Shown here: positions 1 through 12,913 of the stretch, piece after piece
Layout of the letters: each line of letters begins with the position of its first letter
How positions within the stretch are numbered: the first letter of the stretch is position 1
Origin: a virus
Taxonomy: Duplodnaviria > Heunggongvirae > Uroviricota > Caudoviricetes
Strand: one strand, 5' to 3'
IMG/VR virus record: IMGVR_UViG_2526164634_000015
Span: 1 to 13,468 of that record
DNA: 13,468 nucleotides
Program-made: the position numbers and the translations under genes
Notes under the pieces: model-generated
Told to the model about the DNA's origin: nothing
The model's database searches: none
What the model saw: the letters and a program-made list of their open reading frames with translations, nothing else

Positions 1-317
1 TCGTTGCCGGCGTTACCGATATGTGTAAATCCTTCAACGGACTGGGAGAACAGGTACAACATGTGCTGAATGATAATCCCTTCTCCGGTCACCTGTTTAT
101 CTTCCGTGGCCGACGGGGGGACACCGTTAAAATTCTTTGGGCTGATGCTGATGGTCTGTGCCTGTTCACCAAACGCCTGGAGGAAGGCCAGTTTATCTGG
201 CCTGCGGTGCGTGACGGTAAGGTATCCATTACCCGCTCGCAACTGGCAATGCTCCTCGATAAGCTGGACTGGCGTCAGCCAAAAACATCCCGCCTTAACG
301 CCCTGACAATGTTGTAA
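1..317 (+). CDS. tnpB: IS66-family accessory protein TnpB (orf2), 5'-partial at window edge
   Basis: Translation ...VAGVTDMCKSFNGLGEQVQHVLNDNPFSGHLFIFRGRRGD...LCLFTKRLEEGQFIWP aligns along its length with the second TnpB copy at 1963-2310 (roughly 65% identical by eye); the reading frame is open back to base 1. Confidence 0.85.
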   Translation, partial: VAGVTDMCKSFNGLGEQVQHVLNDNPFSGHLFIFRGRRGDTVKILWADADGLCLFTKRLEEGQFIWPAVRDGKVSITRSQLAMLLDKLDWRQPKTSRLNALTML

Positions 318-341
318 AAAACACCTGGCCGCATTATAAAA
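1..341 (+). mobile_element. Truncated IS66-family element: 3' part of tnpB only, no orf3 and no terminal repeat; ends where the next IS begins
   Basis: TnpB-like ORF runs in frame from the window edge to a stop at 317; only 24 bp follow before the GTAA terminus of the adjacent element at 342. The expected downstream transposase gene is absent. Confidence 0.6.
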
Positions 342-363
342 GTAAGCGGCTCGTCAGAACCGT
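342..363. repeat. Terminal inverted repeat of the IS66-family element (transposase-proximal end)
   Basis: Begins 5'-GTAAGCG, the start I recall as typical of IS66-family termini; pairs with 3019-3040. Confidence 0.7.
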
Positions 364-371
364 ATTGATAT

Positions 372-1943
372 TTACTGAGAGCTCAGATCAACTTTCCAGG
401 GCAACAGATCGCGTACCCGGTTTGCCGGCCAGTCCTGGATATGTTCAATGACGTAGCGCAGCCACTTTTCTGGCTCCACATTGTTCAGACGGCATGTGCC
501 GATCAGCGAGTACAACACCGCCGCATGTTCACCATCGCTGTCGGAACCCGCGAACATCCAGTTTTTCCGGCCTACGGCCACTCCCCGTAAGGCGTTCTCT
601 GCGATGTTGTTGTCGATTTCCACCCAGCCATTACTGCAGTACACGTTCAGTGCATCCCACTGTTTCAGCAGGTATGCGAACGCTTTTGCCGTATCTGAGT
701 GACGCGACAGTGTTTTCATCTGTTGCTGTATCCAGTCATACAGTGACTGCATCAGTGGCGCGGCTCTGGTTTTTCTTGCCGCCAGACGCTGTTCTGCTGA
801 ACAGCCCCGGACCTCTGCCTCGATGGCATACAGTTCACCGATACGCTGCAGGGCTTCCGTGGTGATGTCGGTGGGCGCTCTTGCATGCACATCGTGGATT
901 TTTCTCCGGGCATGAGCCATACACGCGGCTTCCGTTATTCTGCCGGATTCGTATAACGCCCGGTAACCACCGTAAGCATCGGCCTGAAGCACACCGCTGT
1001 AACCGGCCAGGTGATTTTGTGGATGGATACCTTTCCGGTCCGGACTGTACGCGAACCAGACCGCCGGGGGCATCTGTGAACCGGCGTTACGGTCATCACG
1101 GACGTAGACCCACAGCCGGGCTGTCCGGGTTTACCGCTGCCCGGCTCCTGGACCGGGACGGGGATATCATCAGCATGGACTTTACCGGGCATCAGCACAT
1201 ACTGGCGCAGGACGTCATACTGCGGCTCCAGTAGTTCAGCAACGGCACCAGTCCAGCGCCCCAGTGTGGCACGGCTCAGCTCCACACCCTGACGGCGGTA
1301 TATCTCTGACTGGCGGTATAACGGCAGATGGTCTGCATATTTTCCGGTGACGACATGGGCCAGGAGCCCCGCTCCGGCATAACTGCGTGCAATGGGTTTT
1401 GAAGGCACCGGTGCCTGCACGATATGGTCGCACCGGCAACAGGCCAGTTTCGGACGTTGTGTTTCGATAACCTTAAAGGCGCTGCTGATAAGCTCCAGTT
1501 GCTCTGACACATCACATCCCAGAGAACTGAGTTCACCACCACAGGCAGGACAGCATTCCTCTTCCGGTCCGGATAACCCGGGTTTCACGGGGAAGTGAGG
1601 CCGGTAACGGTTTACGGGCTGAAGACTGGCGCAGGGCGGATGGCAGTACCGGGTCATATTGCTCACCCAGCGTTTCCGCCATTTCTTCCTGAAGTGCGCT
1701 GATTCGCTCCTGTGCTTCCTGTATCTGCCGTTCGGTTTTTGCACGAAGTTTTTCTGAGCTTTTACCGAACTGCATACGTTGCAGTTTCGCAACCAGCACC
1801 TTCAGCCGGTTGATTTCGGAAGCATAAGCCGCCACCCGCTGTGAGAGCAGGCGGTTGTATTCAGCCATCTGGCGTATGGTGTCCTGTTGCGTCTGCAACA
1901 GTGCCCGCAGGCGGGCGTTCTCATGAGCAAGTGAGGTGTCCAT
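372..1943 (-). pseudogene. tnpC: IS66-family transposase (orf3/TnpC) split over three reading frames by two single-base indels
   Basis: N-terminal leucine-zipper segment (ORF 1533-1943: MDTSLAHENARLRALLQ...), zinc-finger and middle segment (inside ORF 935-1792: PEEECCPACGGEL...[16 protein letters not shown]) and DDE C-terminal segment (ORF 372-1073: [15 protein letters not shown]...) are consecutive parts of one transposase in three frames. Frame switches lie near 1555-1580 and 1095-1130. Confidence 0.8.
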
Positions 1944-1962
1944 ATCCTCACTTTACAACGGG

Positions 1963-2310
1963 TTATATGCGGATTCCAGCGCGTTCCGTTCGTTTCGGGT
2001 GCTTCCAGTTGATACCTTCAAGAAGCATGGATAACTGAGCCGGAGTAAGGTGCACCTTGCCGTCACGGGTGACTGGCCAGACGAAGCGGCCCCGCTCCAG
2101 GCGTTTGGTGAAGAGGCACAGTCCGTCACTGTCAGCCCACAACACTTTTATCTGGTCACCCCGGCGTCCGCGGAAGATGAACAGGTGTCCGGAGAACGGG
2201 TCATCCTTCAGGACGTTCTGAACTTTTGATGCCAGGCCGTTAAAACCATTTCGCATATCGGTGATACCGGCAACCAGCCAGATACGCGAACCGGCAGGGA
2301 GAGATATCAT
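1963..2310 (-). CDS. tnpB: IS66-family accessory protein TnpB (orf2)
   Basis: 115-aa ORF MISLPAGSRIWLVAGITDMRNGFNGLASKVQNVLKDDPFSGHLFIFRGRRGD..., a recognisable IS66 Orf2; start overlaps the tnpA stop (ATGA). Confidence 0.9.
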   Translation of the reverse strand: MISLPAGSRIWLVAGITDMRNGFNGLASKVQNVLKDDPFSGHLFIFRGRRGDQIKVLWADSDGLCLFTKRLERGRFVWPVTRDGKVHLTPAQLSMLLEGINWKHPKRTERAGIRI

Positions 2311-2987
2311 CAGTGGCTGCTCCCTTTCATTTCGCGGATAAGTGTCTGTAATAACGCCGGCGTCAGTTTACCTTTAAGCCTGAGAGTTCCGGCCGGCAGA
2401 ATCAGCTCACAACACAGACTGTCGGACGGTGTATTTATCTGCTCTGGTTCCTGTGCGGGGGCCGGGATTTTATTATCCGGCTCCGGCGTTAACGTCACGG
2501 GAAGCAGTACCGGCATATTTTTTCCGGAAGGCAGCAGGCCACCTTTCCGGTATTGATGGCGCCAGTTGAAGAGCAGGTTATCGTTGATTCCGTTTTCCCG
2601 GGCGATCTGCGCCACACAGGCTCCGGGCTGCAGTGACTGCTCCACTAAGGCGATTTTAAACTCATAAGGGAAGTTGGGCCGCCGGGGACGTTTTTTTATC
2701 ACGGGGGCTTCGGATATAACGGTGTTTTCAGGACGTACGACTGGTACCGTGGAAAATTGTCCGTAAAGGCAGGCATCAAGTTCCTGCTCCGACATGCCTG
2801 CGGGCAAAGGCCACGAAAGGCCAGCTCTCCGAAAGCGCACGAACATATTACAAACTGTTGATTTTGGTACACCCAGGCGACGCCCGGCCACAACCCGGGG
2901 TAAATGTTCTTCAAAGTGAAGACGTAAAGCTTCAGTGATCCAGGTCCGGTGTTTCATACGATAGTGTCCATTAAAAATGATGGACAT
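2310..2987 (-). CDS. tnpA: IS66-family accessory protein TnpA (orf1), long form with two helix-turn-helix-like regions; true start may be an internal Met
   Basis: C-terminal half (RPRRPNFPYEFKIALVEQSLQPGACVAQIARENGINDNLLFNWRHQYRKGG) looks like an IS66 Orf1 / IS3-type HTH; lies inside the IS about 53 bp from the 3040 terminus and is coupled to tnpB. Confidence 0.75.
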   Translation of the reverse strand: MSIIFNGHYRMKHRTWITEALRLHFEEHLPRVVAGRRLGVPKSTVCNMFVRFRRAGLSWPLPAGMSEQELDACLYGQFSTVPVVRPENTVISEAPVIKKRPRRPNFPYEFKIALVEQSLQPGACVAQIARENGINDNLLFNWRHQYRKGGLLPSGKNMPVLLPVTLTPEPDNKIPAPAQEPEQINTPSDSLCCELILPAGTLRLKGKLTPALLQTLIREMKGSSH

Positions 2988-3018
2988 TATTTTTGTAGAG
3001 CCGGAGGAAACAGACCAG

Positions 3019-3040
3019 ACGGTTTAAATGAGCCGGTTAC
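3019..3040. repeat. Terminal inverted repeat of the IS66-family element (tnpA-proximal end)
   Basis: ...AGCCGGTTAC ends at 3040; its reverse complement starts GTAACCGGCTC and pairs with 342-363. Confidence 0.7.
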
Positions 3041-3051
3041 GATAAATATCC

Positions 3052-3585
3052 ATGAACACCAAAATCAAATACGGCCTGTCGGCTGCCGTTCTGGCGCTGA
3101 TTGCCGCTGGTGCGTCTGCGCCTGACATTCTCGATCAGTTTCTGGATGAAAAGGAAGGCAATCACACCACGGCATACCGTGATGGTGCAGGTATCTGGAC
3201 CATCTGCCGTGGTGCCATCATGGTGGATGGCAAACCTGTCGTTCCGGGCATGAAGTTGTCGAAGGAAAAATGCGACCAGGTTAACGCCATTGAGCGTGAT
3301 AAAGCGCTGGCGTGGGTGGAGAAAAACATCAAAGTGCCATTGAGCGAACCCCAGAAAGCGGGGATCGCGTCATTCTGTCCGTACAACATTGGTCCCGGTA
3401 AGTGTTTCCCGTCGACGTTTTATAAACGAATTAATGCAGGTGATCGCAGGGGAGCGTGTGAGGCGATTCGCTGGTGGATTAAGGACGGTGGCAGAGACTG
3501 CCGTATTCGTTCAAACAACTGCTACGGTCAGGTATCCCGTCGTGACCAGGAGAGCGCGCTGGCGTGCTGGGGTATCGACAGATAA
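3052..3585 (+). CDS. Phage endolysin, T4-lysozyme-like (GH24) with an N-terminal signal-anchor-release (SAR) type hydrophobic segment
   Basis: 177-aa ORF; N-terminus MNTKIKYGLSAAVLALIAAGASAP is a weakly hydrophobic Ala/Gly-rich segment; E-x8-D-x5-T catalytic spacing in EGNHTTAYRDGAGIWT; followed by Rz/Rz1 as in lambdoid lysis cassettes. Confidence 0.9.
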   Translation: MNTKIKYGLSAAVLALIAAGASAPDILDQFLDEKEGNHTTAYRDGAGIWTICRGAIMVDGKPVVPGMKLSKEKCDQVNAIERDKALAWVEKNIKVPLSEPQKAGIASFCPYNIGPGKCFPSTFYKRINAGDRRGACEAIRWWIKDGGRDCRIRSNNCYGQVSRRDQESALACWGIDR

Positions 3586-3675
3586 GCAGAATATTTTGCT
3601 GAAAAATAAAGCATGGCCACGCGGGCGGATAACATGAAATCCTGCGAACTGGCGAAACGTAAGTGAATAAAAGTA

Positions 3676-3712
3676 AAAACCCCGTTTGTTGGCACCAAGC
3701 GGGGTTTTGTGT
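3676..3712 (+). terminator. Intrinsic (rho-independent) terminator downstream of the endolysin gene
   Basis: AAAA-CCCCGTTTG-(loop)-CAAGCGGGG-TTTTGTGTTT: GC-rich stem of about 9 bp followed by a T-run, with an A-run upstream so it could act in both directions. Confidence 0.6.
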
Positions 3713-3744
3713 TTCCTGACTCCGGAAAAGTCAAAGGAGAAAGT

Positions 3745-3882
3745 GTGTTTGATTTTAGCAAACTGATTCGGGAGATTCGAGTGATGGCTGAAAAATTATC
3801 CACCTGGAAGTTCATTCTTATCTGGCTGGTGTTTGTGATTATGGCCTCCGGTTATTTCATCGGTCAGATACGCTGGTGGTGA
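3745..3882 (+). CDS. Small predicted single-pass membrane protein (45 aa from GTG 3745, or 32 aa from ATG 3784), stop overlapping the Rz start region
   Basis: AGGAG at 3734-3738 lies 6 nt before the GTG; translation [45 protein letters not shown] has one hydrophobic helix; its TGA (3880-3882) is 1 nt before the Rz ATG (3884). Too short to appear in the ORF track. Confidence 0.35.
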
Positions 3883-3883
3883 A

Positions 3884-4348
3884 ATGAACCGCGTACTGTG
3901 CGTAGTCATCATTGCCCTGCTGGTGGCCTGTGGTGCGCTTAGTCTGGGGCTGAATCATTACCGTGATAACGCCATTACCTACAAAGCCCAGCGCGACAAA
4001 AATGTCAGAGAACTGAAGCTGGCGAACGCGGCAATTACTGACATGCAGATGCGTCAGCGTGATGTTGCTGCGCTCGATGCAAAATACACGAAGGAGTTAG
4101 CTGATGCGAAAGCTGAAAATGATGCTCTGCGTGATGATGTTGCCGCTGGTCGTCGTCGGTTGCACATCAAAGCAGTCTGTCAGTCAGTGCGTGAAGCCAC
4201 CACCGCCTCCGGCGTGGATAATGCAGCCTCCCCCCGACTGGCAGACACCGCTGAACGGGATTATTTCACCCTCAGAGCGCGACTGATAATAATGCAAAAA
4301 CAACTTGAAGGGGCACAGCTATACATTCGAGAGCAATGCCTCAGATAA
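3884..4348 (+). CDS. Rz: Spanin inner-membrane subunit Rz (i-spanin)
   Basis: 154 aa; N-terminal TM helix ([20 protein letters not shown]) then a charged coiled-coil-like region; contains the embedded Rz1 frame; follows the endolysin. Confidence 0.85.
4104..4286 (+). CDS. Rz1: Spanin outer-membrane lipoprotein subunit Rz1 (o-spanin), embedded in the +1 frame of Rz
   Basis: 60 aa; signal peptide with lipobox (LVVVGC) and Pro-rich mature part (PPPPPAW...PPPDW); entirely inside Rz in another frame, the classic Rz/Rz1 arrangement. Confidence 0.8.
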
Positions 4349-4655
4349 AAACCGGCCAAGGATAATCCGCTGAAGATTCGCCGGTGGCTAAAGTGTGCCA
4401 AGAGTTCAATTTACGCAATTACTCCAGTCGATGCTATGCACCGTCTTTGTGAAGTCAATGGATACCTGATTTATTTCTGTGCGCTGTATCGTCGCTGTAC
4501 TCTTGCATTAATTATGACTGTAGCCTGACGGGGAACTCCTTCTGCACAAGTGTGGGGGAATAATCAAAAACGATGCACACCGGGGTTACCGGGTACACAT
4601 ATTTCATCATGCCAGCGAGTCCGGTTCTGGCACGGAAGAAACCGGACGTTATGAT

Positions 4656-5081
4656 TTAGTGCGGAAATATTTGTGTAGTGTTCTGAATGTTCTCAGTAAA
4701 GAGTAATGAATTATCAAAGGTATAGTAATACCTTTTGTTTTCGTGGATATTTGTAATCCATCTGAAAACCCCTGCTGTAGCAAGATTTTTCCTGTATTCG
4801 TAAAATGATAACTCTCCTGATTTGAATCCTTTTAAGGTGGCTTCTATAAGGCATTTATTTTTTGAAAATCTTACATTTACAACCTTACCCTGTCCTTTTA
4901 TTAAAACCGTATTATCGTTTTCAAGAACAAGATGAATATTCTCTGTGGCTAAATAGTAAATGTAATGTGAGACATTGTGACGTTTTAGTTCAGAATAAAA
5001 CCAGTGATAGTTTAAATTATTTCGCACTTTATCGAATATTTGTTTAAAAATGGCAACCTGAGCCATTGTAGTACCTTCCAT
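4656..5081 (-). CDS. AT-rich moron gene; hypothetical protein, tentatively DUF1398 family (YbcV/YdfO-like) from memory
   Basis: 141-aa ORF in a segment of about 33% GC (by eye), far below neighbouring phage genes; position between Rz1 and cos/terS matches where I recall ybcV/ydfO-like genes in E. coli K-12 cryptic prophages. Start may be the internal Met (MAQVAIF...). Confidence 0.6.
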
Positions 5082-5123
5082 GTGATATGAGGGGGCGTAG
5101 TCTGCACGATTATCTAAATTGCT

Positions 5124-5357
5124 TCAATCTGGTCTGACCTGTTTTCTGAGCAATTCAGTAATGTCACTCTTTTCTTTGTTTGCTTCAGGCGAAACTCTTT
5201 TTACTGAGCACAGTCTCCGGCGGCAGGCTTCAATGACCCAGGCTGAGAAATTCCCGGACCCTTTTTGAACAAGAGCGATGTTAATTTGTTCAATCATCTG
5301 GTTTGGAAATCGGATGTTGCGGGTTGTTGTTCTGCGGGTTCTGTTCTTTGATGACAT
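5124..5357 (-). CDS. Small ribbon-helix-helix-like protein, tentatively DUF3950 family (YlcI/YnfO-like) from memory
   Basis: 77-aa ORF with a basic N-terminus followed by TRNIRFPNQMIEQINIALVQKGSGNFSAWVIEACRRRL, an RHH-like strand-helix-helix pattern; co-oriented 42 bp upstream of the 141-aa gene. Confidence 0.55.
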   Translation of the reverse strand: MSSKNRTRRTTTRNIRFPNQMIEQINIALVQKGSGNFSAWVIEACRRRLCSVKRVSPEANKEKSDITELLRKQVRPD

Positions 5358-5563
5358 AATGTTTCCCCATATTCAGTGTTGCTGATTTGTATTATCTGAA
5401 GTTGCTTTTACGTTAATTTGACGCAGATCAATCAATACGATACCTGCGTCATAATTGATTATTTCTCGTGGTTTGATGGCGTACACACATGTTGTGATAA
5501 ACCTTATATAGATGATAATCATTATCATTTCGTGGGTCCTTTCCGGCGATCCGGGCCGTTACG

Positions 5564-5575
5564 GGGCGGCGACCT
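5564..5575 (+). other. cosN cohesive-end sequence (12-nt GGGCGGCGACCT) of a lambda-type cos site
   Basis: 5358-5608 reads like the junction of the lambda right and left genome ends (...GATGATAATCATTATCA...CCGTTACG | GGGCGGCGACCT | CGCGGGTTTTCGCTATTTATGAAAATTTTCCGG) as I recall them, immediately upstream of the small terminase gene. Confidence 0.85.
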
Positions 5576-5758
5576 CGCGGGTTTTCGCTATTTATGAAAA
5601 TTTTCCGGGATCCATGTCCGGTTTCTCTTCAAGTTAACTATATGAAAAATATAAAAACAGGTCTTCTGTGAACCGGACATGAACAAAAAACAGACATGTA
5701 AACCGGACATGACCGGTTTTGTTGTGATTGTGAGGTGAGAGTTTTTGCGAGGTGAGGA
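5576..5758 (+). promoter_or_regulatory. cosB-like terminase binding region: one inverted and two direct copies of an AACCGGACATG motif flanking an A/T-rich candidate IHF site
   Basis: CATGTCCGGTT at 5613-5623 (inverted), AACCGGACATG at 5671-5681 and 5701-5711 (direct, 30 bp apart), A/T-rich stretch 5631-5660 between the inverted and direct copies; parallels the lambda R3-I1-R2-R1 layout with a different motif. Confidence 0.65.
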
Positions 5759-6268
5759 GTGGCTACGCAGACTGAAGTTGCCAGGCATTTAAGTCTGACC
5801 GATCGCCAGCTTCGCAGATTGCAGAAATTGCCGGGTGCCCCGATATCGAATAAGCGAGGGCAACTGGATCTGGATGCCTGGCGCGATTTTTACATATCGT
5901 ATCTGAGGAGAAGTAAAAACGATGTGCCTGATGGCGATAGCGAAGACGACTATGAGGAGAAATTGCTTATTGCCAGATGGGAACTGACAGCAGAACAGGC
6001 TGTTACACAGCAGTTAAAAAATGAGGTGTCAAAAGGAAAACTTATTGACACCGGGTTCTGTATTTTTGCCCTCAGTAAGCTGGCAATGGCGTTATCCAGT
6101 ACGCTTGATTCCATCCCTTTATCCATGCAGCGACAGTTTCCTGATTTAACACCGCGCCATCTTGACCATCTGAAAACCCTTATTGCGAAGGGGGCAAATC
6201 AGTGTGCGCGGGCAGGGGATAAATTACCGGATTTACTCGATGAATATATCAGAGCAACAACTGAATAA
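5759..6268 (+). CDS. Terminase small subunit (Nu1-like DNA-recognition subunit), GTG start
   Basis: 169 aa; N-terminal HTH-like TQTEVARHLSLTDRQLRRL; sits directly after cosB and overlaps the terL start by 29 nt, as Nu1/A do in lambda; GAGG 6-7 nt upstream of the GTG. Confidence 0.75.
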   Translation: MATQTEVARHLSLTDRQLRRLQKLPGAPISNKRGQLDLDAWRDFYISYLRRSKNDVPDGDSEDDYEEKLLIARWELTAEQAVTQQLKNEVSKGKLIDTGFCIFALSKLAMALSSTLDSIPLSMQRQFPDLTPRHLDHLKTLIAKGANQCARAGDKLPDLLDEYIRATTE

Positions 6269-8167
6269 TATGGTGGCCGCCGTTTCGGTTGCGCTGCAGC
6301 CTCTGGTCAGGGTTGTACCGATGACGGCAGTTGAATGGGCTGACCAGTATTATTATCTGCCGAAAGAATCCTCATACGGTGACGGCGAATGGAAAACGCT
6401 GCCGTTCCAGATCGCCATCATGAACAGTATGGGGAATGATCAGATCCGCACTGTTAATCTGATTAAATCTGCCCGTGTTGGCTATACAAAGATGTTGCTG
6501 GGAGTCGCCGGGTATTTTATTGAGCATAAATCCCGAAACAGTCTGCTTTTTCAGCCCACGGATTCTGCCGCTGAAGATTTTATGAAGTCTCACGTGGAGG
6601 CGACGATTCGGGACGAGCCATGCCTGAAAGATCTTTCCCCGTGGCTGGGTCGTAAACATCGTGACAATACTCTCACGCTGAAACGCTTTTCATCGGGGGT
6701 GGGCTTCTGGTGCCTGGGTGGTGCGGCAGCAAAAAACTACCGTGAAAAATCCGTGGACGTGGTCTGCTATGACGAACTTTCCTCGTTCGAGCCGGATGTC
6801 GAAAAAGAGGGCTCGCCAACCCTGCTGGGGGATAAGCGTATTGAGGGCTCGGTATGGCCAAAATCCATTCGCGGCTCGACGCCTAAAATAAAAGGCTCCT
6901 GCCAGATCGAAAAAGCGGCCAACGAGTCGGCGCATTTCATGCGTTTTTATGTGTCCTGCCCGCACTGTGGGGAGGCGCAGTATCTGAAATTTGGCGATGA
7001 GTCCACGCCTTTTGGCCTTAAATGGGAGAAGGACAGCCCCGAAAGCGTTTTCTACCTCTGTGAACATCATGGCTGCGTGATCCATCAGTCTGAGCTTGAC
7101 CAGAGCAACGGGCGGTGGATCTGCGAAAACACGGGCATGTGGACCCGCGACGGTCTGACGTTTTTCAGCGCCCGGATAATGAAATTCCGCCGCCGCGCTC
7201 CATCACATTTCATATCTGGACGGCGTACAGTCCGTTCACCACCTGGGTACAGATTGTCTATGACTGGCTGGATGCACTGAAAGATCCCAACGGCCTGAAA
7301 ACCTTTGTGAACACCACGCTGGGCGAGACCTGGGAAGAGGCCGTGGGCGAAAAACTCGATCACCAGGTGCTGATGGATAAGGTTGTGCGTTACACGGCTG
7401 CGGTGCCTTCCCGGGTGGTTTATCTGACGGCGGGCATTGACTCGCAGCGAAACCGTTTTGAGATGTATGTCTGGGGATGGGCTCCGGGAGAGGAAGCCTT
7501 TCTGGTGGATAAAATCATCATTATGGGGCGTCCCGATGAGGAAGAGACGCTGTTACGTGTGGATGTGGCGATCAACAAAAAATACCGCCATGCAGACGGA
7601 ACCGAAATGACCATTTCCCGTGTCTGCTGGGACACCGGGGGGATCGATGGCGAAATTGTCTATCAGAGGTCAAAAAAACACGGTGTTTTCCGGGGGCTGC
7701 CGGTAAAAGGTGCATCTGTTTATGGCAAGCCGGTGATCACCATGCCAAAAACCCGCAATCAGCGGGGCGTGTATCTGTGCGAAGTGGGGACGGACACCGC
7801 AAAAGAAATTCTCTATGCCCGTATGAAAGCCGATCCCACGCCTGCGGATGAAGCCACGTCGTATGCCATCCGTTTTCCTGATGATCCGGAGATTTTTTCG
7901 CAGACAGAGGCGCAGCAACTGGTGGCGGAAGAGCTGGTGGAGAAGTGGGAAAAAGGAAAGATGCGTCTGCTGTGGGATAACAAAAAGCGGCGTAACGAAG
8001 CGCTGGACTGCCTGGTGTATGCCTACGCGGCATTACGTGTGTCCGTGCAACGCTGGCAGCTTGATCTGGCTGTACTGGCAAAATCCCGGGAAGAAGAGAC
8101 GACCCGGCCAACCCTGAAAGAACTGGCAGCGAAGCTGTCCGGAGGAGTGAATGGTTACAGTCGCTGA
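6240..8167 (+). pseudogene. A: Terminase large subunit (lambda gpA-like), interrupted by a -1 frameshift near 7170-7175
   Basis: ORF 6183-7280 (real start MNISEQQLNNM at 6240) matches the gpA N-terminal half as I recall it (TAVEWADQYYYLPKES..., GYTKMLLGVAGYFIEHK, KRFSSGVGFWCLGGAAAKNYREKSVDV); ORF 7115-8167 in another frame continues with ITFHIWTAYSPFTTWVQIV...KRRNEALDCLVYAYAALR. One base appears missing in the GCCCGG run around 7170-7175. Confidence 0.85.
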
Positions 8168-8357
8168 ACTGCAGGCGCTGCGTCAGGCGCGCCTTGATTT
8201 ATTAACCGGTAAACGGGTGGTGTCTGTCCAGAAAGATGGTCGCAGAATTGAATATACGGCGGCTTCTCTGGATGAGCTTAACCGGGCGATCAATGATGCG
8301 GAGTCGGTACTGGGGACAACCCGACGTCGCCGTCGTCCGCTGGGAGTGAGGTTATGA
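8151..8357 (+). CDS. W: Head completion / head-tail joining protein (lambda gpW-like)
   Basis: 68 aa, MVTVAELQALRQARLDLLTGKRVVSVQKDGRRIEYTAAS..., close to lambda W as I recall it; stop overlaps the portal start. Confidence 0.85.
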   Translation: MVTVAELQALRQARLDLLTGKRVVSVQKDGRRIEYTAASLDELNRAINDAESVLGTTRRRRRPLGVRL

Positions 8358-9946
8358 AACGAACGCCTGTCCTGATTGATGTGAACGGCGTTCCGCTTCG
8401 TGAGAGTCTCAGCTACAACGGGGGCGGCGCAGGATTTGGCGGGCAAATGGCGGAGTGGTTGCCACCGGCGCAGAGTGCCGATGCAGCCCTGCTGCCTGCG
8501 TTGCGTCTGGGGAATGCCCGGGCAGATGATCTGGTGCGCAATAACGGAATAGCGGCTAATGCGGTGGCCCTGCATAAGGATCACATTGTCGGGCATATGT
8601 TTCTGATCAGCTACCGTCCGAACTGGCGCTGGCTGGGGATGCGGGAGACCGCAGCAAAAAGCTTTGTCGATGAGGTGGAGGCGGCCTGGTCGGAATACGC
8701 AGAAGGGATGTCTGGCGAGATCGACGTGGAAGGAAAACGCACATTTACGGAGTTTATCCGTGAAGGTGTTGGCGTTCATGCGTTTAACGGCGAAATCTTT
8801 GTGCAGCCGGTCTGGGATACGGAAACCACGCAGTTATTCCGTACGCGTTTTAAAGCCGTGAGTCCGAAACGGGTGGACACGCCAGGACACGGTATGGGGA
8901 ACCGTTTTCTGCGGGCCGGGGTGGAGGTCGATCGATATGGCCGTGCCGTTGCGTACCATATCTGTGAGGATGATTTTCCTCGCTCCGGGAGTGGACGATG
9001 GGAACGGATCCCGCGTGAACTTCCCACCGGGCGTCCGGCCATGCTGCATATTTTCGAGCCGGTGGAGGACGGGCAGACCCGTGGGGCCAATCAGTTTTAC
9101 AGCGTCATGGAACGGCTGAAGATGCTCGATTCCCTGCAGGCAACACAGCTTCAGTCGGCCATAGTGAAGGCGATGTATGCAGCGACGATTGAAAGTGACC
9201 TTGATACCGAAAAGGCCTTTGAATATATCGCCGGCGCGCCACAGGAGCAGAAGGATAATCCGCTTATTAATATTCTGGAGAAGTTCTCCAGCTGGTATGA
9301 CACGAATAACGTGACACTGGGCGGTGTCAAAATTCCGCACCTTTTCCCTGGTGATGATCTGAAACTACAGACTGCGCAGGATTCAGACAATGGATTTTCG
9401 GCGCTTGAACAGGCGCTGCTGCGGTATATCGCCGCCGGTCTTGGCGTTTCCTACGAACAGTTGTCCCGGGATTACTCGAAGGTCAGTTATTCAAGTGCCC
9501 GCGCCTCCGCCAATGAGTCGTGGCGCTATTTTATGGGACGACGAAAATTTATTGCGTCCCGGCTGGCCACGCAGATGTTTTCCTGCTGGCTGGAAGAGGC
9601 ACTTCTTCGGGGGATTATTCGTCCGCCACGGGCGCGTTTTGATTTTTATCAGGCGCGATCAGCCTGGTCACGGGCTGAGTGGATTGGAGCCGGAAGAATG
9701 GCCATTGACGGGCTCAAGGAGGTTCAGGAATCGGTGATGCGCATTGAGGCCGGACTGAGCACGTATGAGAAAGAGCTGGCGCTGATGGGCGAGGATTATC
9801 AGGACATTTTCCGCCAGCAGGTCAGGGAATCTGCAGAGCGGCAAAAAGCCGGACTCTCACGTCCGGTGTGGATAGCGCAGGCGTATCAGCAGCAGATAGC
9901 GGAGAGTCGCAGGCCGGAAGAGGAGACAACACCCCGTGAGACGTAA
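8354..9946 (+). CDS. B: Portal protein (lambda gpB-like)
   Basis: 530 aa, collinear with my recollection of lambda gpB over the whole length (GGGAGFGGQ..., NARADDLVRNNG, FEPVEDGQTRGAN, LQSAIVKAMYAATIES, GRMAIDGLKEVQE); no frame disruption. Confidence 0.9.
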   Translation: MKRTPVLIDVNGVPLRESLSYNGGGAGFGGQMAEWLPPAQSADAALLPALRLGNARADDLVRNNGIAANAVALHKDHIVGHMFLISYRPNWRWLGMRETAAKSFVDEVEAAWSEYAEGMSGEIDVEGKRTFTEFIREGVGVHAFNGEIFVQPVWDTETTQLFRTRFKAVSPKRVDTPGHGMGNRFLRAGVEVDRYGRAVAYHICEDDFPRSGSGRWERIPRELPTGRPAMLHIFEPVEDGQTRGANQFYSVMERLKMLDSLQATQLQSAIVKAMYAATIESDLDTEKAFEYIAGAPQEQKDNPLINILEKFSSWYDTNNVTLGGVKIPHLFPGDDLKLQTAQDSDNGFSALEQALLRYIAAGLGVSYEQLSRDYSKVSYSSARASANESWRYFMGRRKFIASRLATQMFSCWLEEALLRGIIRPPRARFDFYQARSAWSRAEWIGAGRMAIDGLKEVQESVMRIEAGLSTYEKELALMGEDYQDIFRQQVRESAERQKAGLSRPVWIAQAYQQQIAESRRPEEETTPRET

Positions 9947-11440
9947 TCTTTCACACATTATTGCCGCAGCATTCAATGAACCGCTGCTTCTGGAGCCCGC
10001 CTATGCGCGGGTTTTCTTTTGCGCGCTCGGGCGCGAGATGGGGCAGCAAGTCTTTCGGTACCACAGCAGCAGGTACAGCTTGATGCTCCCGGAATGCTGG
10101 CTGAAACGGACGAGTACATGGCCGGAGGTAAACGACCGGCCCGTGTTTACCGGGTGGTGAACGGTATTGCTGTACTGCCGGTGACCGGCACGCTGGTGCA
10201 CCGGCTGGGGGGTATGCGGCCATTTTCCGGAATGACAGGCTATGACGGTATTGTCGCCTGTCTTCAGCAGGCAATGGCGGATAGCCAGGTGCGGGGCGTA
10301 CTGCTGGACATTGACAGTCCGGGCGGGCAGGCCGCCGGCGCGTTTGACTGCGCTGACATGATTTACCGCCTCCGTCAGCAGAAGCCGGTCTGGGCACTGT
10401 GCAATGACACGGCCTGTTCTGCAGCCATGCTGCTGGCATCGGCCTGCTCCCGACGGCTGGTTACCCAGACATCCCGTATCGGCTCCATTGGCGTGATGAT
10501 GAGCCATGTCAGCTATGCCGGTCATCTGGCGCAGGCCGGTGTGGATATCACGCTGATTTACTCAGGGGCGCACAAGGTGGATGGCAATCAGTTTGAAGCC
10601 TTACCGGCAGAGGTTCGCCAGGACATGCAGCAGCGCATTGATGCGGCGCGCCGGATGTTTGCCGAAAAAGTGGCGATGTTTACCGGTCTGTCTGTTGATG
10701 CCGTCACGGGAACAGAGGCCGCCGTTTTTGAAGGTCAGTCCGGCATTGATGCCGGGCTGGCGGATGAATTAGTCAATGCGTCGGATGCCATCAGTGTGAT
10801 GGCCACGGCGCTGAACAGTAATGTCAGAGGAGGCACTATGCCGCAATTAACTGCAACGGAAGCCGCCGCGCAGGAGAACCAGCGAGTGATGGGGATCCTG
10901 ACATGCCAGGAAGCGAAAGGACGTGAACAGCTTGCCACGATGCTGGCAGGACAACAGGGCATGAGCGTTGAACAGGCCCGGGCGATTCTGGCCGCGGCGG
11001 CACCGCAGCAGCCGGTGGCATCCACGCAGAGTGAAGCCGATCGCATTATGGTGTGTGAAGAAGCGAACGGTCGTGAACAACTGGCGGCAACGCTGGCGGC
11101 GATGCCGGAGATGACGGTGGAAAAAGCCCGCCCGATCCTGGCTGCTTCACCGCAGGCGGATGCCGGACCCTCACTCCGTGATCAGATCATGGCACTGGAT
11201 GAGGCAAAAGGGGCTGAGGCGCAGGCTGAACAGCTGGCTGCCTGCCCGGGAATGACTGTGGAGAGCGCCCGGGCTGTGCTGGCTGCGGGATCAGGTAAGG
11301 CAGAACCGGTCTCTGCATCCACAACCGCCCTGTTTGAACGCATCATGGCGAACCATTCACCGGCTGCGGTACAGGGTGGCGTGCCACAGACGTCAGCAGA
11401 CGGTGATGCGGACGTGAAAATGCTCATGGCCATGCCATGA
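9936..11440 (+). pseudogene. C: Head maturation protease / scaffold (lambda gpC-Nu3-like, S49 peptidase family), -1 frameshift near 10040-10075; C-terminal scaffold-like part holds three protein-level repeats
   Basis: GTG start at 9936 gives ...LSHIIAAAFNEPLLLEPAYARVFFCALG (gpC-like N-terminus) and then runs into a stop; the rest of gpC (VNGIAVLPVTGTL..., LDIDSPGG, PVWALCND, SIGVMMSHV) is in ORF 10019-11440 in another frame. Confidence 0.8.
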
Positions 11441-11881: not shown

Positions 11882-12913
11882 ATGGGATTGTTTACGACCC
11901 GCCAGTTACTCGGTTATACCGAACAAAAAGTGAAATTTCGTGCGCTGTTTCTGGAGCTGTTTTTCCGCCGTACGGTGAATTTCCATACCGAAGAGGTGAT
12001 GCTGGACAAAATTACCGGAAAAACGCCGGTGGCGGCCTATGTCTCCCCGGTTGTTGAAGGAAAAGTGCTGCGTCATCGCGGTGGTGAAACCCGCGTGTTA
12101 CGTCCGGGCTACGTCAAGCCGAAACACGAATTTAATTACCAGCAGGCGGTTGAGCGTCTTCCCGGTGAAGAGTCCGGCTCAGCTGAACGACCCGGCCTAC
12201 CGTCGTCTGCGTATCATCACTGATAACCTCAAACAGGAAGAGCACGCCATTGTCCAGGTGGAAGAAATGCAGGCGGTGAATGCCGTGCTGTATGGCAAAT
12301 ACACGATGGAAGGAGACCAGTTCGAGAAAATTGAGGTCGATTTTGGCAGGTCGACGAAGAATAACATCACTCAGGGTAGTGGTAAGGAGTGGTCAAAAAC
12401 AGGATCGTGACACGTTCGATCCTACACATGATCTTGACCTACTACTGCGACCAGGCCAGCGGTCTTGTGAATATTGCCATTATGGACGGTACCGTCTGGC
12501 GTCTGCTGAATGGCTTTAAATTGTTCCGCGAAAAACTGGATACCCGTCGCGGCTCTAATTCGCAACTCGAAACAGCGGTGAAAGACCTGGGCGCGGTGGT
12601 GTCCTTCAAAGGGTATTACGGCGATCTGGCCATTGTGGTGGCAAAAACGTCTTATGTGGCAGAGGACGGTACCGAAAAACGTTATCTGCCTGAGGGCTCG
12701 CTGGTCCTGGGGAATACGGCAGCAGAGGGCATTCGTTGCTATGGTGCCATTCAGGATGCGCAGGCGTTGTCCGAAGGTGTGGTGGCCTCTTCCCGTTATC
12801 CGAAACACTGGCTGACGGTAGGGGATCCCGCCCGTGAATTTACCATGACGCAGTCCGCGCCGCTGATGGTGTTGCCGGACCCGGATGAGTTTGTGGTGGT
12901 ACAGGTGAAATAA
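11882..12913 (+). pseudogene. E: Major capsid protein (lambda gpE-like) interrupted by three +1 single-base insertions (about 12173, 12395, 12440) that together restore the original frame
   Basis: Segments in four ORFs (11882-12223, 12039-12410, 12280-12519, 12389-12913) each match consecutive stretches of gpE as I recall it (KPKHEFNYQQ..., DPAYRRLRII...VEEMQAV..., DTFDPTHD, ...KLDTRRGSNS...SRYPKHWLTVGDPAREFTMTQSAPLMVLPDPDEFVVVQV). Confidence 0.85.

What the first reader, a model, noticed from the sequence alone, without database searches (positions are those of the whole stretch)
12165..12450. Major capsid gene has three same-sign single-base insertions that sum to zero net frame change
The gpE-like frame shifts 2 to 0 (about 12173), 0 to 1 (an A5 run at about 12395) and 1 to 2 (an extra C at about 12440). 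Removing one base at each site gives a clean gpE alignment (LPGEEPAQLNDPAYRRL, EWSKQDRDTFDPTHDLDYYCDQASG). Three +1 events within 270 nt that together return to the original frame are unusual: candidate explanations are systematic homopolymer errors, or a first inactivating insertion followed by relaxed selection. Other genes in the window (B, W, D, endolysin, Rz) are indel-free and terL and C have deletions rather than insertions, which argues against a uniform error process.
Basis: seen in the sequence. Interest (0 to 1): 0.45.

Follow-up and report, generated by a model that had tools for sequence, protein, structure and literature searches.

The report
Capsid gene frameshifts: probable sequencing errors
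The three extra bases that break the phage major capsid gene are present in this 2012 draft contig of E. coli DEC12D but in no other copy of the gene examined, so they are most likely sequencing or assembly errors, not biology.

Summary
The lambda-type major capsid gene E (11882-12913) is 1032 nt, against 1029 nt in intact relatives. It carries three single-base insertions: G at 12172, one extra A in the 12395-12399 run, and A at 12441. Removing them gives a protein identical to WP_000522630.1.

The window is the whole contig AIHD01000037.1 of the E. coli DEC12D draft assembly. None of the three insertions occurs anywhere else I looked:
- none of 1084-1324 gene copies in 5426 complete E. coli genomes;
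- none of the 80 best IMG/VR relatives, and no exact insertion-bearing 20-21-mer in IMG/VR;
- the truncated products exist on this contig only.

The contig has seven single-base indels (tnpC x2, terL, C, E x3). Six of them, against about five substitutions, fall in the 9.3 kb that has near-identical relatives. A DEC9D contig from what is probably the same project has four more single-base insertions, one inside the same 270-nt stretch.

Each shifted frame meets a stop codon, so the net-zero sum is not compensation. It is expected by chance in at least 25% of cases.

Verdict: consensus indel errors in a contig built from repeats (about 0.85). Real lesions private to this strain remain possible (about 0.1). 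Interest is low.

The parts
11882..12913 (+). Lambda-type major capsid gene E, broken into three called fragments (113, 47 and 148 aa)
   Evidence: fragments hit PF03864. The corrected protein matches PF03864 over its full length, E = 2.7e-66, and is identical to WP_000522630.1.
12172..12172 (+). Insertion 1: extra G, GAAGA[G]TCC, not in a homopolymer. The original frame then stops at 12221.
   Evidence: Absent from 1324 places in complete genomes (best identity 70/71) and from IMG/VR.
12395..12399 (+). Insertion 2: A4 to A5 run. The frame that is correct between sites 1 and 2 then stops at 12408.
   Evidence: Absent from 1084 places in complete genomes (best identity 105/107) and from IMG/VR.
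12441..12441 (+). Insertion 3: extra A, CCT[A]CTAC, not in a homopolymer. It returns the reading to the original frame.
   Evidence: Absent from complete genomes and from IMG/VR.
7172..7173 (+). One-base deletion (G) in terminase large subunit gene A, GCGCC-CGGAT. It splits the gene into 346-aa and 286-aa fragments.
   Evidence: The surrounding 5.2 kb has only 2 substitutions relative to the strain 12A prophage.
10039..10040 (+). One-base deletion in a G5 run (now G4) near the start of head protease/scaffold gene C
1129..1130 (-). One-base deletion (T4 to T3 on the + strand) in the ISCro1 transposase gene tnpC
1568..1568 (-). One-base insertion (CCGG[T]CCGG on the + strand) in ISCro1 tnpC. Together with 1129 it also sums to zero.

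Best explanation
The three extra bases are errors in the consensus sequence of a draft assembly, not mutations in the bacterium. The window is an entire 13.5-kb contig of the E. coli DEC12D draft genome. It is built wholly from repeated DNA: an IS66-family element, ISCro1, and the late region of a lambdoid prophage of a kind that related genomes carry in up to five copies. In such contigs, read-level insertion and deletion errors can survive into the consensus, perhaps made worse where reads from near-identical copies are mixed. In the real strain the capsid gene is most likely intact and identical to WP_000522630.1.

Shown: the lesions are unique to this contig, single-base indels are in excess over substitutions, other genes in the contig are also affected, and a DEC9D contig, probably from the same project, behaves the same way.

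Inferred: that the cause is technical. Which technical step is responsible was not resolved.
For: 1. Uniqueness.
- The window is contig AIHD01000037.1 of GCA_000250275.2, E. coli DEC12D.
- The 113-aa and 47-aa E fragments, both terL fragments and the C fragment each occur on this one contig only, in a collection of about 15 billion proteins.
- No complete E. coli genome has insertion 1: 1324 places, best identity 70/71. None has insertion 2 or 3: 1084 places, best 105/107.
- All 80 best IMG/VR relatives, out of 473, align to the intact gene without a gap.
- The insertion-bearing 20-21-mers have no exact match in IMG/VR.

2. Indel excess. Where a near-identical relative exists, the counts are:
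- 1-3040 against strain 12A: 2 substitutions and 2 indels.
- 3041-8250 against strain 12A: 2 substitutions and 1 indel.
- E against CP015241: 1 substitution and 3 indels.
The total is about 5 substitutions and 6 indels in 9.3 kb.

3. Spread. Seven single-base indels hit five genes, including a multi-copy IS transposase gene.

4. Probably the same project, different strain. DEC9D contig AIGN01000013.1 has four single-base insertions in terL, portal, E and T. The one in E corresponds to window position about 12425, between sites 2 and 3.

5. No function for the net-zero sum. Each shifted frame meets a stop, at 12221 and at 12408.

6. Removing the three bases gives a protein identical to that of intact relatives.
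Against: - No reads, quality values or coverage figures were available, so the artefact is inferred, not seen.
- I could not verify the sequencing technology of the DEC project, or that DEC9D and DEC12D were sequenced together; the paper I recall is not held.
- Two of the three E insertions are outside homopolymers, so the simplest homopolymer-error model does not cover them.
- The idea that the insertions arise where co-resident prophage copies differ was not supported statistically. One of nine indels fell next to a panel polymorphism, or at most three allowing for gap placement, against a background of 17-29%.
- Lambdoid prophages in pathogenic E. coli are often truly defective (from my own knowledge), so lesions private to this strain cannot be excluded.
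Confidence: 0.85

Rival explanations
1. The insertions are real mutations private to the DEC12D lineage, in a prophage that is decaying. Several late genes (terL, C, E) would have been hit recently by single-base frameshifts.
For: The contig carries an IS element directly upstream of the lysozyme gene, which fits a damaged prophage. Three morphogenesis genes are broken. Defective lambdoid prophages are common in EPEC and EHEC (my own knowledge).
Against: None of the lesions is shared with any of 5426 complete genomes. That includes O111:H2 strain 12A, whose prophage differs by 2 substitutions over 5.2 kb yet has intact terL, C and E. An indel-to-substitution ratio of about 1:1 is far from what natural decay gives. 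The ISCro1 transposase gene and a DEC9D contig, probably from the same project, show the same kind of lesion.
Confidence: 0.1
2. One inactivating insertion came first. Relaxed selection then allowed two more, which by chance or by selection restored the frame (compensatory frameshifts).
For: The three +1 events sum to +3, and the last 157 codons are back in the original frame.
Against: The stretches between the sites cannot be translated in the original frame, because stops occur at 12221 and 12408. No protein-level rescue therefore exists. Relaxed selection predicts accumulated substitutions, but there is only one in 1029 nt. Three same-sign events are expected by chance in at least 25% of cases. 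The tnpC gene in the same contig also sums to zero.
Confidence: 0.02
3. The frameshifts are decoded by programmed ribosomal frameshifting, so the gene is functional as written.
For: None beyond the net-zero sum. Lambda-like phages do use a programmed -1 frameshift in the tail genes G-T (my own knowledge).
Against: It would need three separate +1 events, at sites that are absent from every relative. There is no conserved slippery sequence. Relatives encode the same protein in a single frame.
Confidence: 0.01

Closest known systems
Lambda gpE-type major capsid protein (Pfam PF03864, Phage_cap_E), allele WP_000522630.1 of E. coli lambdoid prophages such as that of E2348/69
   Same: After removal of the three bases the product is identical over 342 aa and matches the full profile. 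The gene order Nu1-A-W-B-C-D-E-FI-FII is that of the relatives.
   Different: As deposited, the gene is split into three fragments by three single-base insertions that no relative has.
Frameshift errors in draft bacterial assemblies (single-base indels in the consensus, concentrated in repeat-derived contigs)
   Same: The indels are all single bases and unique to the assembly. They equal or outnumber substitutions and hit several unrelated genes in a contig made of IS and prophage repeats. A second contig, probably from the same project, shows the same pattern.
   Different: Most of the events are not in homopolymers, so the classic homopolymer-length error model explains only 3 of 7. The read technology could not be checked.
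Truly defective lambdoid prophages of EPEC and EHEC
   Same: There is an IS insertion beside the lysis genes, and several head genes are broken.
   Different: Real defects are inherited by clonal relatives and come with substitutions and larger deletions. Here nothing is shared, and the sequence is otherwise nearly identical to intact copies.

Membership tests
Lambda gpE-like major capsid protein (PF03864) | Full-length match to the Phage_cap_E profile above the curated cut-off | tested here: met
   Corrected protein: 224.3 bits against a cut-off of 22.9, profile positions 1-329 of 329. The deposited fragments also hit PF03864.
Lambda gpE-like major capsid protein (PF03864) | Position in the head module between the decoration gene D and the packaging gene FI | tested here: met
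   HDPD (D) lies upstream and Packaging_FI downstream. Annotated relatives have the same order.
Lambda gpE-like major capsid protein (PF03864) | A single uninterrupted reading frame | tested here: not met
   In the deposited sequence there are three frame changes, with stops at 12221 and 12408.
Assembly or sequencing indel artefact | Lesions unique to one assembly and absent from near-identical sequences elsewhere | tested here: met
Assembly or sequencing indel artefact | Single-base indels in excess over substitutions and spread over unrelated genes | tested here: met
   About 6 indels against 5 substitutions in 9.3 kb. Five genes are affected.
Assembly or sequencing indel artefact | The same error pattern in other contigs of the same sequencing project | tested here: met
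   The DEC9D contig has four single-base insertions. Only one other contig was examined. That DEC9D and DEC12D belong to one project rests on strain names, neighbouring accession prefixes and my recollection; it was not verified.
Assembly or sequencing indel artefact | The extra bases are not supported by the raw reads | not testable with these tools
   No reads, quality values or coverage figures are available.
Pseudogene formed under relaxed selection | Lesions shared by related strains | tested here: not met
   None of 5426 complete genomes or 80 IMG/VR loci has any of them.
Pseudogene formed under relaxed selection | Accumulated substitutions alongside the frameshifts | tested here: not met
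   One substitution in 1029 nt against the nearest intact allele.
Programmed ribosomal frameshift | A shift site conserved among relatives | tested here: not met
   All relatives encode the protein in one frame.

The most novel reading that the evidence does not exclude
The seven single-base indels, including the three in E, are real and arose recently in the DEC12D lineage. That would point to a burst of frameshift mutagenesis acting on mobile DNA, for example a frameshift-prone repair or replication episode during an abortive prophage induction, with almost no accompanying substitutions.
Probability: 0.08. Interest if true: 0.3.

Novelty: not a real feature. Interest (0 to 1): 0.06.

Why it matters
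It matters mainly as a caution. Annotation built on this contig reports a capsid gene in three pieces, a split terminase, a truncated head protease and a broken transposase, and so suggests a dead prophage. The underlying phage may well be intact. Counts of pseudogenes or defective prophages drawn from drafts like this one will be inflated. If the lesions were real they would show only ordinary prophage decay.

Tried and rejected
1. 'Both alleles kept' idea. I asked whether each insertion arose where two co-resident prophage copies differ by a SNP, so that the consensus kept both bases.
- It looked attractive for the DEC9D insertion (CCTAC[G]ACATG, where allele types have A or G), for the terL deletion (a GC/CG polymorphic dinucleotide) and for site 2 (an AAAA/TGAG block).
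- Sites 1 and 3 show no matching alternative allele (GAG or CTA) among 80 IMG/VR loci or six complete loci.
- A formal coincidence test was not significant.
- I keep it as a possible contributor, not as the mechanism.

2. 454 flow-order check. All non-homopolymer insertions are compatible with a false signal in an empty flow under the order TACG (my own reasoning). The test discriminates at only one site, so it proves nothing.

3. Sequencing technology of the DEC project. The project paper I recall (Hazen et al. 2012, J Bacteriol 194:3026) is not held, and accession and strain searches found nothing relevant.

4. A second, L001-type prophage in strain 12A. I guessed coordinates and the region returned was the LEE island. 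Abandoned.

5. Compensatory frameshifts and programmed frameshifting. Both rejected, because of the stop codons and the absence of the sites from relatives.

Full report
**What is there**

Bases 11882-12913 encode a lambda-type major capsid protein (gpE, Pfam PF03864). It lies in the usual head module: Nu1, A, W, B, C, D, E, FI, FII.

Three-frame translation shows the gpE-like sequence moving from frame 2 to 0, then 0 to 1, then 1 to 2. Alignment with intact copies from E. coli 2013C-4465 and E2348/69 places three single-base insertions:
- a G at 12172 (GAAGA[G]TCC);
- one extra A in the run 12395-12399 (A4 becomes A5);
- an A at 12441 (CCT[A]CTAC).

The gene is 1032 nt, against 1029 nt in every relative listed. 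Apart from the insertions it differs from the nearest allele by one substitution. Deleting the three bases gives a 342-aa protein identical to WP_000522630.1, and that protein matches the whole Phage_cap_E profile.

**Where the window comes from**

An exact look-up of the 113-aa N-terminal fragment found one contig, AIHD01000037.1 of GCA_000250275.2. It is 13,468 bp long, so the window is that whole contig. The source names the proteins EHX47640-EHX47648 of Escherichia coli DEC12D.

From memory, this belongs to the draft genomes of the DEC collection (Hazen et al. 2012). I could not read that paper or confirm the sequencing technology.

**Are the insertions found anywhere else?**

No.
- The E gene has matches in 1923 records of the complete E. 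coli collection, 499 of them at 99% identity or more. The top 30 listed are all 1029 nt and annotated as intact.
- A 71-nt query centred on site 1 matched 1324 places, and the best identity was 70/71.
- A 107-nt query covering sites 2 and 3 matched 1084 places, and the best was 105/107.
- The 80 best of 473 IMG/VR relatives align without a single gap.
- The 20-21-mers that contain each insertion have no exact match in IMG/VR.
- The 113-aa and 47-aa products that depend on insertions 1 and 2 occur on this contig alone, among about 15 billion proteins.

**The rest of the contig**

Comparison with near-identical relatives shows four more single-base indels:
- a deletion at 1129 and an insertion at 1568 in the ISCro1 transposase gene;
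- a deletion at 7172 in terL;
- a deletion at 10039, in a G5 run, in gene C.

Substitutions are very few:
- Bases 3041-8250 differ from the prophage of O111:H2 strain 12A by two substitutions and the one deletion.
- Bases 1-3040 differ from that strain's ISCro1 locus by two substitutions and two indels.
- Over the 9.3 kb that has a near-identical relative, I count about five substitutions and six indels.

That ratio is not what natural divergence or pseudogene decay produces. It is what a noisy consensus produces. Only three of the seven indels lie in homopolymers, so this is not a pure homopolymer-length problem.

**A second contig, probably from the same project**

The C-terminal 148-aa fragment also occurs on DEC9D contig AIGN01000013.1. 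The strain names and the neighbouring accession prefixes suggest the same project, but I could not verify this. That contig has its own four single-base insertions, in terL, portal, E and T. Its E insertion (CCTAC[G]ACATG) corresponds to window position about 12425, between sites 2 and 3. No complete genome matches the DEC9D E allele over its full length at better than 98.3%, which suggests a chimeric consensus.

**The contig is built from repeats**

- Bases 342-3040 are an ISCro1 element with proper ends.
- Its left flank carries TTATAAAA, the target duplication of the copy at 4.83 Mb in strain 12A. Its right flank is prophage DNA directly upstream of the lysozyme gene, with no matching duplication.
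- No complete genome contains that right-hand junction in one piece.
- The prophage part is a mosaic of allele types that occur in different prophages of related genomes.

This is either a path threaded through repeated DNA by the assembler or a real IS-mediated rearrangement. In either case the consensus comes from sequence that is multi-copy in related complete genomes and so probably in DEC12D.

**Does the net-zero sum mean anything?**

No.
- After insertion 1 the original frame stops at 12221.
- The frame that is correct between sites 1 and 2 stops at 12408 once insertion 2 is passed. The gene cannot be read through, and there is no rescue at the protein level.
- Three indels of random sign share a sign in 25% of cases.
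- The two tnpC indels in the same contig also cancel.

The clustering of three indels in 270 nt is mildly unusual (p about 0.02-0.04 by simulation). The stretch includes the block where co-resident capsid alleles diverge most: 40 differences per 250 nt between the two allele types. Mixed or thin read support is plausible there. However, my test of whether indels sit at polymorphic positions was not significant.

**Conclusion**

The best-supported explanation is that the three insertions are consensus errors of a draft assembly in a repeat-derived contig (confidence about 0.85). On that reading the real gene is intact. Real lesions private to the strain cannot be excluded without reads (about 0.1). 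Compensatory or programmed frameshifting is contradicted by the stop codons and by the absence of the sites from relatives. The finding is ordinary and of low interest, except as a warning about pseudogene calls from such drafts.

Noticed in passing
window 342-3040 (- strand), flanks 334-341 and 3041-3048: A complete ISCro1 (IS66 family) element with tnpA, tnpB and a twice-frameshifted tnpC. Its left flank TTATAAAA is the target duplication of the copy at 4.83 Mb in strain 12A, but the right flank is prophage DNA (GATAAATA) just upstream of the lysozyme gene. The two flanks therefore belong to different IS copies. This is either an assembly path through a repeat or an IS-mediated rearrangement.
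   Followed up: partly
window 1-341: The 3' part of the tnpB gene of a second, different IS66-family element into which ISCro1 is inserted. It is 100% identical to a locus beside efa1/lifA in O111:H2 strain 12A and to a locus in FDAARGOS_1059.
   Followed up: partly
window 8250-9000 and 9400-9700: The portal gene region switches between allele types. 8251-8450 matches one FDAARGOS_1059 prophage. About 8500-9000 matches none of the six comparison loci (10-15 differences per 250 nt to all of them). 9400-9700 matches the E2348/69 type. This is either natural lambdoid mosaicism or a mixed consensus; I could not tell which.
   Followed up: no
window 10249, 11052, 11365: Three single-base substitutions at which the window differs from all six comparison loci. 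They could be private SNPs or substitution errors.
   Followed up: no
L007 (DEC9D contig AIGN01000013.1) 1325, 2231, 5761, 9356: Four single-base insertions split terL, portal, E and tail gene T. The E allele is a patchwork of two allele types (for example AGAGCAGG between AAAACAGG and TGAGCAGG), and no complete genome matches it over its full length at better than 98.3%.
   Followed up: partly
window 4656-5357 (- strand): Two small genes on the opposite strand, between the lysis genes and Nu1: a DUF1398 protein and a YnfO/DUF3950 protein. They are identical to those of the strain 12A prophage. Other relatives carry different cargo at this position (Rha regulator, TonB-like, PerC).
   Followed up: no
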